From the NCBI RefSeq assembly GCF_044324875.1, contig NZ_CP172185.1: 64,000 bases of DNA; one strand, given 5' to 3'. Positions within the stretch are counted from its first letter, which is position 1. The number at the start of each line of letters is the position of its first letter. The position numbers were made by a program. This DNA is from Escherichia coli. GTDB lineage: Bacteria > Pseudomonadota > Gammaproteobacteria > Enterobacterales > Enterobacteriaceae. Shown here piece by piece: positions 63,001-63,599 of the stretch.

Positions 63001-63599
63001 CCTGCCAGTCGGGCTACATCCTTTATTGTCGCCATGAAAATACCTTAGTGGGTAAACGCTTACATTGTTTCAGTGTTACGGAAAACGCCCGTTGGTTCAA
63101 GGGGCGGCGTGTTTTCATCGTGGGAATGTGAGCCAAACGCAAATAAGTAAGACAAAAAAAGAGATTGCAAACCTTTGGTTACACTTTGCGAAACGCTGTT
63201 GCGATTGACCGCTGGTGGCGTTTGGCTTCAGGTTGCTAAAGTGGTGATCCCAGAGGTATTGATAGGTGAAGTCAACTTCGGGTTGAGCACATGAATTACA
63301 CCAGCCTGCGCAGATGCGCAGGTTTTTTTTTGCCGGTCATCAATCTGTAACAGTAACCGACAATTTACACACCTCGTTGCATTTCCCTTCATTCCTTTGC
63401 GTTTTCTCGCTGGCGAAGAGTCGTCGTGCAGACCACAATCAAGATCCCAGAGGTATTGATTGGTGAGATTATTCGGTACGCTCTTCGTACCCTGTCTCTT
63501 GCACCAACCTGCGCGGATGCGCAGGTTTTTTTTCGCACCTAATTTACTGTCGCTCGCGTTCTTTATCTCGTGTAATCTCCCTCCATTCGCTTTTACTGA

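What the first reader, a model, noticed from the sequence alone, without database searches (positions are those of the whole stretch)
63249..63533. Tandem paralogous sRNAs OmrB and OmrA between galR and aas
Two about 85-nt sRNAs share nearly identical 5' ends (CCCAGAGGTATTGAT...) and near-identical terminator hairpins but differ in the middle. This is a known duplicated regulator pair, recognisable directly from the sequence.
Basis: partly seen in the sequence, partly recalled or inferred. Interest (0 to 1): 0.25.

Follow-up and report, generated by a model that had tools for sequence, protein, structure and literature searches.

The report
Known sRNA pair OmrB and OmrA
The two tandem repeats are the well-studied E. 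coli regulatory small RNAs OmrB and OmrA, identical to the K-12 genes and in their usual place between galR and aas, so the finding is correct but ordinary.

Summary
The observation and the interpretation both hold. Rfam's OmrA-B model (RF00079, gathering score 40) matches 63249-63330 (+) at 86.1 bits and 63446-63533 (+) at 96.6 bits, both full length. The first copy (82 nt) is 100% identical to K-12 omrB (b4445). The second (88 nt) is 100% identical to K-12 omrA (b4444).

The flanks are galR (62004-63035, minus strand) and aas (from 63621, plus strand). The copies share 20 of the first 21 nt and 32 of the last 35 nt, and differ in the middle. Each has its own promoter and its own intrinsic terminator.

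The published discriminator is present: -12T in PomrB (TAAAGT) and -12C in PomrA (CACAAT). The shared 5' end is predicted to pair with the ompR leader and the start of the ompT coding region better than shuffled seeds do. That agrees with published compensatory-mutation work (PMC2588501).

Both genes sit at this locus in more than 99.6% of 5,426 complete E. coli genomes. The locus is syntenic across Enterobacterales.

Verdict: already known, low interest. One practical point is that the RefSeq/PGAP records shown in the search outputs leave both genes unannotated.

The parts
63249..63330 (+). omrB sRNA gene (82 nt)
   Evidence: Rfam RF00079 at 86.1 bits, model positions 1-87 of 87. 100% identical to K-12 omrB b4445.
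63446..63533 (+). omrA sRNA gene (88 nt)
   Evidence: Rfam RF00079 at 96.6 bits, model positions 1-87 of 87. 100% identical to K-12 omrA b4444.
63249..63269 (+). OmrB conserved 5' domain (nt 1-21), the target-pairing seed
   Evidence: 20 of 21 nt identical to OmrA. It is left mostly unpaired in the Rfam consensus and the minimum-free-energy folds. It is predicted to pair with ompR (-19..-10) and ompT (+12..+21) better than shuffled seeds, z -3.7 and -3.3. The function was shown by compensatory mutations in PMC2588501.
63446..63466 (+). OmrA conserved 5' domain (nt 1-21), the target-pairing seed
   Evidence: Same evidence as for OmrB. Duplex z-scores are -2.5 for ompR and -3.6 for ompT.
63272..63286 (+). 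OmrB central hairpin in the variable region
   Evidence: Minimum-free-energy fold. A hairpin is kept at this position in orthologues with different sequences.
63475..63491 (+). OmrA central hairpin (GGTACGCTCTTCGTACC) in the variable region
   Evidence: Minimum-free-energy fold and the scan. Orthologues keep a hairpin here with changed stem sequences, for example CAGCATAC/GTATGTTG in Serratia and TGTGTG/CACACG in Kluyvera.
63302..63331 (+). OmrB intrinsic terminator: stem-loop plus a T9 run (T8 in K-12)
   Evidence: Terminator scan. Across 49 family members 100% of cells are paired, and 2 stem pairs show compensatory changes. The extra T relative to K-12 is seen.
63505..63533 (+). OmrA intrinsic terminator: stem-loop plus a T8 run
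   Evidence: Terminator scan and the covariation counts.
63234..63242 (+). PomrB core: TG at -15/-14 and the -10 hexamer TAAAGT (-12T)
   Evidence: The spacing to the +1 at 63249 is read from the sequence. TG and the T/A positions are invariant in 11 species. -12T is reported as the sigma-70-type feature of PomrB (PMC12692685).
63170..63215 (+). Conserved upstream blocks of PomrB: TTTGGTTACACTTTGCG, GCTGTTGCGATTG, CGCTGG (about -79 to -34). Probable response-regulator (OmpR) binding region.
   Evidence: The blocks are invariant or nearly so in 11 Enterobacteriaceae. OmpR-P activates a -114..+50 PomrB template in vitro (PMC5175337). Assigning these blocks to OmpR is inference.
63434..63439 (+). 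PomrA -10 hexamer CACAAT (-12C)
   Evidence: Spacing to the +1 at 63446 is read from the sequence. CACAAT is kept in most two-copy species. -12C is reported as the sigma-S specificity determinant of PomrA (PMC12692685).
63346..63413 (+). Conserved upstream blocks of PomrA: TGTAACA (-100..-94), GTTGCA (-70..-65), TTTGCGTTTT (-50..-41), CGCTGG (-38..-33)
   Evidence: Conservation in 11 species. The published in vitro test compared a -114..+50 PomrA template with a -60..+50 truncation used as a control promoter (PMC5175337). This places the needed element upstream of -60.
62004..63035 (-). galR, the divergently transcribed flanking gene (context)
   Evidence: NCBIfam GalR equivalog at 734.5 bits against a cut-off of 557. 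Annotation of an identical region.
63621..64000 (+). 5' part of aas, the co-directional flanking gene, which runs off the window (context)
   Evidence: NCBIfam NF005959 matches residues 1-126, E 6.8e-75. Annotation of an identical region.

Best explanation
The region holds two adjacent, independently transcribed genes for the paralogous Hfq-dependent base-pairing small RNAs OmrB (63249-63330) and OmrA (63446-63533).

Each gene has its own activator-dependent promoter and ends at its own Rho-independent terminator. [quoted passage not shown] PomrA additionally depends on sigma-S through its -12C. PomrB is of the sigma-70 type (-12T with an extended -10 TG).

The single-stranded, nearly identical 5' ends (nt 1 to about 21) pair with short complementary stretches near the translation start of many mRNAs. 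Reported targets include the outer-membrane proteins ompT, cirA, fecA and fepA, and also csgD, flhDC, flgM, dgcM and btuB. The result is blocked translation and RNase E-dependent decay. They also pair with the ompR leader, which closes a negative feedback loop on their own activator. The divergent middles and promoters give each copy some targets and inputs of its own.

Shown here: identity, anatomy, conservation, promoter features and predicted pairing. Taken from the literature: OmpR and sigma-S control, Hfq and RNase E dependence, and in vivo pairing.
For: - Rfam RF00079 gives full-length hits at 86.1 and 96.6 bits against a gathering score of 40.
- Both copies are 100% identical to the curated K-12 omrB and omrA. 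The whole 586-bp spacer differs from K-12 by 2 SNPs and 1 extra T.
- GalR and Aas flank the pair.
- Terminators: found by the scan. They are 100% paired in 49 family members, with compensatory changes at 2 stem pairs. No slid-register control shows any such change.
- The GGUG/CACC helix is invariant. Central hairpins are retained with different sequences: median z is -2.1, and 35 of 49 have z below -1.5.
- The two promoters are conserved separately across 11 species, with TG + TAnnnT for omrB and CACAAT for omrA. This matches the published -12T/-12C distinction.
- The 5' seed gives better duplexes than 1000 shuffled seeds with ompR (-16.9/-19.0 kcal/mol, 1.4%/0.4% of shuffles as good) and ompT (-19.3/-17.8 kcal/mol, 0.2%/0.3%). 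The pairing sites lie at or near the translation start.
- Published compensatory mutants support pairing with ompT, cirA and ompR (PMC2588501). OmpR-P activates both promoters in vitro (PMC5175337).
- omrB with its promoter is present in 5413 of 5426 complete E. coli genomes, and omrA with its promoter in 5406 of 5426. galR-omr-aas synteny holds across Enterobacterales.
Against: Nothing found here contradicts the explanation. The limits are these.

- No expression, Hfq-binding or target data exist for this particular strain. Those steps are inferred from K-12 work on identical sequences.
- The predicted cirA duplex is no better than shuffled seeds (z about -0.9), although cirA is a published target with a short pairing.
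- Target sequences were taken from K-12, not from this genome, because the targets lie outside the window.
- The comparative set was collected with the exact 5' 15-mer, so conservation of nt 1-15 in that set is by construction and is not evidence.
- The simple sigma-70 scan found no promoter upstream of either gene. This fits weak, activator-dependent promoters but is not positive evidence.
Confidence: 0.97

Rival explanations
1. The two copies are a chance or non-functional tandem DNA repeat, or relics of a duplication, that is not expressed as RNA.
For: Only the bare fact that it is a roughly 200-bp-period direct repeat in an intergenic region. The simple sigma-70 scan finds no strong promoter.
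Against: Covariance-model scores are 46-57 bits above the gathering score. The sequences are identical to experimentally characterised genes. The terminator stems show compensatory changes. Promoter blocks are conserved separately for each copy. Both copies are present in more than 99.6% of E. coli genomes.
Confidence: 0.01
2. The conserved sequence encodes small proteins. Mechanical ORFs of 38-78 aa overlap the region on both strands.
For: ORFs at 63175-63294 (+), 63228-63392 (-), 63314-63466 (+), 63389-63538 (-), 63426-63542 (+) and 63460-63696 (+).
Against: None of these ORFs matches the conserved units. Conservation is highest at the RNA ends and lowest in the middle. Family members range from 72 to 110 nt, with indels that are not multiples of three. 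No CDS is annotated here in K-12 or in PGAP records. The ORF list is purely mechanical.
Confidence: 0.01
3. Only one copy (OmrA) is functional here, and OmrB is a redundant copy on its way to being lost, as in lineages that keep a single gene.
For: OmrB is reported absent from some Shigella boydii strains and is classed as variable (PMC12692685). Several Enterobacterales loci have a single Rfam hit. Some of these are omrB-promoter/OmrA-body chimeras (PMC13425233).
Against: In this window omrB is intact and identical to the K-12 gene, including its promoter blocks and terminator. It is kept in 5413 of 5426 E. coli genomes. OmrB-specific inputs (RstAB, PMC13425233) and an OmrB-specific activity (pairing with the sRNA RydC) are published.
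Confidence: 0.02

Closest known systems
E. coli K-12 omrA (b4444, formerly rygA/sraE) and omrB (b4445, formerly rygB); Rfam RF00079 OmrA-B
   Same: The RNA sequences are 100% identical. Order, orientation, spacing, flanking genes, promoters and terminators are the same.
   Different: Relative to K-12 there is one extra T in the OmrB terminator T run (9 versus 8) and two SNPs in the galR-proximal part of the spacer, at window 63067 and 63105. None lies in a mature RNA body or a conserved promoter block.
OmrA/B orthologues in other Enterobacterales (Citrobacter, Enterobacter, Kluyvera, Serratia, Edwardsiella, Pantoea, Dickeya, Pectobacterium)
   Same: The 5' CCCAGAGGUAUUGAU-N-GGUG element, the CACC element, the terminator and the galR/aas neighbourhood are shared.
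   Different: The central regions differ and lengths range from 72 to 110 nt. The Rfam scan found a single copy in each of the Dickeya, Pectobacterium, Erwinia, Tatumella, Rahnella, Lelliottia and Serratia bockelmannii loci examined. In the Pantoea loci the two copies are about 2 kb apart.
Other duplicated enterobacterial and gammaproteobacterial sRNA pairs, named from my own knowledge: RyhB1/RyhB2 in Salmonella, Qrr1-4 in Vibrio, PrrF1/PrrF2 in Pseudomonas (a tandem pair)
   Same: Paralogous Hfq-dependent sRNAs with a shared seed, overlapping regulons and diverged promoters that integrate different signals.
   Different: These are unrelated in sequence, regulators and targets. The comparison is one of logic, not of family membership.

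Membership tests
OmrA-B sRNA family (Rfam RF00079) | The covariance model scores at or above the curated gathering score of 40 bits over the full model | tested here: met
   86.1 bits (63249-63330) and 96.6 bits (63446-63533), both covering model positions 1-87 of 87.
OmrA-B sRNA family (Rfam RF00079) | Conserved 5' end CCCAGAGGUAUUGAU-N-GGUG, which is the target-pairing domain | tested here: met
   Present at the first base of both copies.
OmrA-B sRNA family (Rfam RF00079) | 3' Rho-independent terminator (CCUGCGC-NGAU-GCGCAGG plus a U run) preceded by CACC, which pairs with GGUG | tested here: met
   Terminator scan and folds. Pair counts on 49 sequences: terminator 100% paired with 2 compensatory pairs, and the GGUG/CACC helix invariant.
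omrA / omrB of E. coli specifically | Sequence identity to the curated K-12 genes b4444 (88 nt) and b4445 (82 nt) | tested here: met
   100% identity over the full length for both.
omrA / omrB of E. coli specifically | Location in the galR-aas intergenic region, with omrB next to galR, omrA next to aas, and both co-oriented with aas | tested here: met
   GalR and Aas were identified by NCBIfam and by annotation of identical DNA. The same synteny holds in most of the Enterobacterales loci whose flanks reach galR or aas.
omrA / omrB of E. coli specifically | Separate promoters with the published discriminator: -12C in PomrA (sigma-S) and -12T in PomrB (sigma-70) | tested here: met
   CACAAT at 63434-63439 and TAAAGT at 63237-63242, each ending 6 nt before +1. 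The feature is conserved across species and described in PMC12692685. Only the sequence feature was tested, not sigma-factor dependence.
omrA / omrB of E. coli specifically | Transcription activated by EnvZ-OmpR | not testable with these tools
   Conserved upstream blocks lie in the region that OmpR-P needs in vitro. Binding or activation cannot be measured here.
Hfq-dependent trans-acting base-pairing sRNAs | Seed complementarity to the translation initiation regions of validated targets | tested here: met
   The ompR and ompT duplexes beat 98.6-99.8% of shuffled seeds, and the sites lie at -19..-10 and +12..+21. The cirA duplex is indistinguishable from shuffles. Overall the feature is met for two of the three targets tested.
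Hfq-dependent trans-acting base-pairing sRNAs | Hfq binding and Hfq/RNase E-dependent regulation | not testable with these tools
   The sequence has the usual terminator poly-U tail preceded by a U/A-rich stretch. Dependence is published for the identical K-12 RNAs (PMC2588501).

The most novel reading that the evidence does not exclude
The least ordinary reading not excluded is that strain-level detail matters. The 9-T rather than 8-T tract of the OmrB terminator (63323-63331) abuts the conserved upstream region of PomrA. It could change OmrB termination efficiency or Hfq affinity, or allow OmrB-OmrA read-through transcripts, so that the tandem pair would behave differently here than in K-12. 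No evidence supports this. The tract length is simply polymorphic: 8 T in K-12 and another E. coli, 9 T in this window and in E. albertii.
Probability: 0.03. Interest if true: 0.15.

Novelty: already known. Interest (0 to 1): 0.05.

Why it matters
This finding tells us nothing new about biology. OmrA and OmrB have been studied since the early 2000s and remain an active model for how duplicated sRNAs share a seed but diverge in promoters and middle regions.

Its value is as a positive control for the scan. A reader without tools recognised the pair, its boundaries and its neighbours exactly.

There is one practical point. In every RefSeq/PGAP E. coli record shown in the search outputs, the DNA under both genes is listed as having no feature. 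Only the curated K-12 record names them. Automated annotation therefore hides a core regulator pair that is present in more than 99.6% of complete E. coli genomes.

Tried and rejected
- **Genome scan bias.** The genome-contig scan with the 15-mer returned many chance hits in unrelated phyla, as expected for 15 bases in 298 Gb. I kept only hits followed by the family's body and terminator. Because the set was ascertained on the exact 5' 15-mer, I do not use it as evidence that nt 1-15 are conserved.
- **Structure strings.** My first structure string had the wrong length and the second had the GGUG/CACC helix in the wrong register, giving 25.7% paired. The corrected register gives 89% for that helix and 100% for the terminator.
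- **Central hairpins.** MAFFT does not align the variable middle well, so I did not count covariation there. I folded each central region on its own instead.
- **OmpR binding site.** A search of PMC5175337 for a footprint, EMSA or binding site found nothing. Assigning the conserved promoter blocks to OmpR therefore remains inference. It is bounded by that paper's -114 versus -60 templates.
- **cirA pairing.** The predicted duplex is not better than shuffled seeds, so I do not count it as support.
- **Strain identity.** I assumed from the 100% spacer match that the window was O157:H7 strain PV15-279. This was rejected: the rest of the window is only 95.7-98.3% identical to that strain and differs by IS insertions.
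- **aas frame.** The first attempt at the aas reading frame was off by one and was corrected to 63621.
- **Other readings.** The small-ORF, chance-repeat and flanking-gene-terminator readings were rejected (see the rival explanations). galR is transcribed away from the pair, so the hairpins cannot be its terminator.

Full report
**1. The observation**

The sequence at 63249-63533 contains two units that both begin with CCCAGAGGTATTGAT. Both end in a G+C-rich hairpin followed by a T run. Aligned to each other, they share 20 of the first 21 nt; position 16 is A in one and T in the other. They also share 32 of the last 35 nt. Their middles are unrelated in sequence and differ in length, 26 versus 32 nt.

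The 15-mer occurs only at these two places in the window even when two mismatches are allowed. The expected count is 0.13, and no shuffle out of 100 gave two matches. The terminator scan finds both 3' hairpins. The description, the coordinates and the approximate lengths (actually 82 and 88 nt) are correct.

**2. What it is**

Rfam 15 gives two full-length hits to RF00079 (OmrA-B): 86.1 bits at 63249-63330 and 96.6 bits at 63446-63533, against a gathering score of 40. They are the only non-tRNA RNA-family hits in the whole window.

The curated K-12 record places omrA (b4444, 88 nt) next to aas and omrB (b4445, 82 nt) next to galR. The window copies are 100% identical to omrB and omrA respectively. 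The whole 586-bp galR-aas spacer differs from K-12 by two SNPs near galR and one extra T in the OmrB terminator run.

The flanking ORFs are these:
- GalR at 62004-63035 on the minus strand, with the NCBIfam equivalog at 734.5 bits against a cut-off of 557.
- The first 126 residues of Aas, from 63621 on the plus strand.
- LysA lies beyond galR.

**3. Anatomy**

Each RNA has the layout of the Rfam consensus:
- a single-stranded 5' end;
- a GGUG...CACC helix enclosing a variable hairpin;
- the terminator.

I collected 58 distinct family members from Enterobacterales loci and aligned 47 of them with the two window copies, 49 sequences in all. In this alignment the terminator is paired in 100% of cells. 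Two of its pairs change on both sides (U-A to C-G in 3 sequences, G-C to A-U in 13), and no slid-register control shows any such change. The GGUG/CACC helix never varies, so it is uninformative for covariation.

The central regions keep a hairpin while changing sequence. The median z-score against shuffles is -2.1, and 35 of 49 fall below -1.5. One caveat applies: the set was found with the exact 5' 15-mer, so its 5' conservation is by construction.

**4. Promoters**

Upstream of each +1 there is a -10 hexamer ending 6 nt before the start. For omrB it is TAAAGT (63237-63242), preceded by TG at -15/-14. For omrA it is CACAAT (63434-63439). Neither promoter has a good -35, and the simple sigma-70 scan misses both. 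That is what one expects of activator-dependent promoters.

Alignments of 11 species show that each promoter has its own conserved blocks:
- PomrB: TTTGGTTACACTTTGCG, GCTGTTGCGATTG, CGCTGG.
- PomrA: TGTAACA, GTTGCA, TTTGCGTTTT, CGCTGG.

The -12T versus -12C difference is kept in most two-copy species. This matches three published results:
- -12C makes omrA sigma-S dependent, whereas omrB (-12T) is not (PMC12692685).
- OmpR-P activates -114..+50 templates of both promoters in vitro, and a -60..+50 PomrA template served as a control promoter (PMC5175337).
- The two promoters have distinct conservation patterns, and RstAB in multicopy activates omrB specifically (PMC13425233).

Assigning particular blocks to OmpR is my inference.

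**5. Mechanism**

The literature on RNAs identical to these shows the following:
- The 5' end pairs with ompT, cirA and ompR near the translation start.
- Regulation needs Hfq and RNase E.
- A 5'-end mutation abolishes control of all tested targets.
- Compensatory mutations in the targets restore control (PMC2588501).

Because OmpR activates both genes, repression of ompR closes a negative feedback loop. Later work adds csgD, flhDC, flgM, dgcM, btuB, ppc, fabA and others. It also reports that OmrB pairs with the sRNA RydC and so prevents it from activating cfa, which the review calls a sponge mechanism.

As a check here, I tested nt 1-21 of each window RNA against the -60..+30 regions of K-12 ompR, ompT and cirA, with 1000 shuffled seeds as the control.

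| Target | Site relative to AUG | OmrA duplex energy / shuffles as good | OmrB duplex energy / shuffles as good |
|---|---|---|---|
| ompR | -19..-10 (for nt 1-9) | -16.9 kcal/mol / 1.4% | -19.0 kcal/mol / 0.4% |
| ompT | +12..+21 (for nt 1-9) | -19.3 kcal/mol / 0.2% | -17.8 kcal/mol / 0.3% |
| cirA | -40..-9 (whole duplex) | -13.6 kcal/mol / about 20% | -13.6 kcal/mol / about 17% |

The cirA result does not stand out. Expression, Hfq binding and regulation in this strain are inferred, not shown.

**6. Distribution**

- omrB with its promoter is present at 80% coverage or more in 5413 of 5426 complete E. coli genomes. omrA with its promoter is present in 5406 of 5426.
- Across Enterobacterales the galR-omr-aas neighbourhood is kept.
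- Copy number varies. The Rfam scan gave two hits in the Kluyvera, Mangrovibacter, Edwardsiella, Serratia grimesii and Pantoea loci (the Pantoea copies are 2 kb apart). The Citrobacter and most Enterobacter loci carry two copies by the motif search.
- The scan gave one hit in the Dickeya, Pectobacterium, Erwinia, Tatumella, Rahnella, Lelliottia and Serratia bockelmannii loci.
- Several single-copy Enterobacteriaceae carry an omrB-type promoter on an OmrA-type body, as already described in PMC13425233.

**7. Rivals**

- A chance or dead repeat is excluded by the model scores, the compensatory changes and the population-wide retention.
- Small ORFs overlap the region mechanically. However, conservation follows the RNA units, not reading frames, and lengths vary by non-multiples of three.
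- The hairpins cannot terminate galR, which is transcribed away from them.
- The idea that omrB is a decaying copy has support only in other lineages. Here it is intact and identical to the K-12 gene.

**8. Verdict**

Interest is low (0.05). The only residual points are a polymorphic T9 versus T8 terminator tract and the absence of both genes from the RefSeq/PGAP annotations shown in the search outputs.

Noticed in passing
window 63249-63533; RefSeq records: Every RefSeq/PGAP E. coli record listed shows no annotated feature under omrB or omrA ('none'). Only the curated K-12 record names them. A core sRNA pair is therefore invisible in standard automated annotation.
   Followed up: partly
window 63323-63331, 63067 and 63105: The OmrB terminator has a 9-T run against 8 T in K-12. 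E. albertii also has 9 and another E. coli has 8, so the tract is polymorphic. There are also two SNPs relative to K-12 in the galR-proximal spacer.
   Followed up: partly
window 1-64000, compared with L126/L127: The galR-aas spacer is 100% identical to O157:H7 strains, but the rest of the window is only 95.7-98.3% identical to O157:H7 PV15-279. The window lacks that strain's IS1203 in yqeC (junction near 8298-8301) and its ISEc8/IS66 insertion (junction near 45481-45485). It also has about 770 bp at 27523-28292 with no counterpart there.
   Followed up: partly
window about 28300-52100 and 23868-23941: By collinearity with the annotated O157 region, this stretch is the ETT2-type type III secretion island, running from yqeH/ygeH to the sctC/sctV/sctN genes. 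It lies a few kb from a tRNA-Gly(CCC) gene at 23868-23941 (+).
   Followed up: no
L037:6815-6900, L114:1579-1664, L027:8766-8853, L028:5418-5504: These single-copy species carry an omrB-type -10 (TACAGT or TACTCT preceded by TTG) fused to an OmrA-type body. This is the chimera expected from recombination between the tandem copies and is already described in PMC13425233.
   Followed up: partly
L080:4050-4132 (Siccibacter colletis), L099:421-505 (Pseudescherichia vulneris): Each locus has a single exact match to the 5' 15-mer, with an omrA-type -10 (CACAAT) and an OmrA-type body. For L080 the Rfam scan also found only one hit; L099 was not scanned. This does not obviously fit the published statement that the omrB promoter is always the one retained. 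The L099 locus is short, and L080 has a 314-nt galR-omr spacer that could hold a remnant.
   Followed up: no
L030:2747-2822 and 4789-4879; L059:647-722 and 2680-2770 (Pantoea): In Pantoea the two family members are about 2 kb apart rather than about 200 nt. One copy is unusually short (75-76 nt). The other has a CCCACGC/GCGTGGG terminator. What lies between them was not examined.
   Followed up: no
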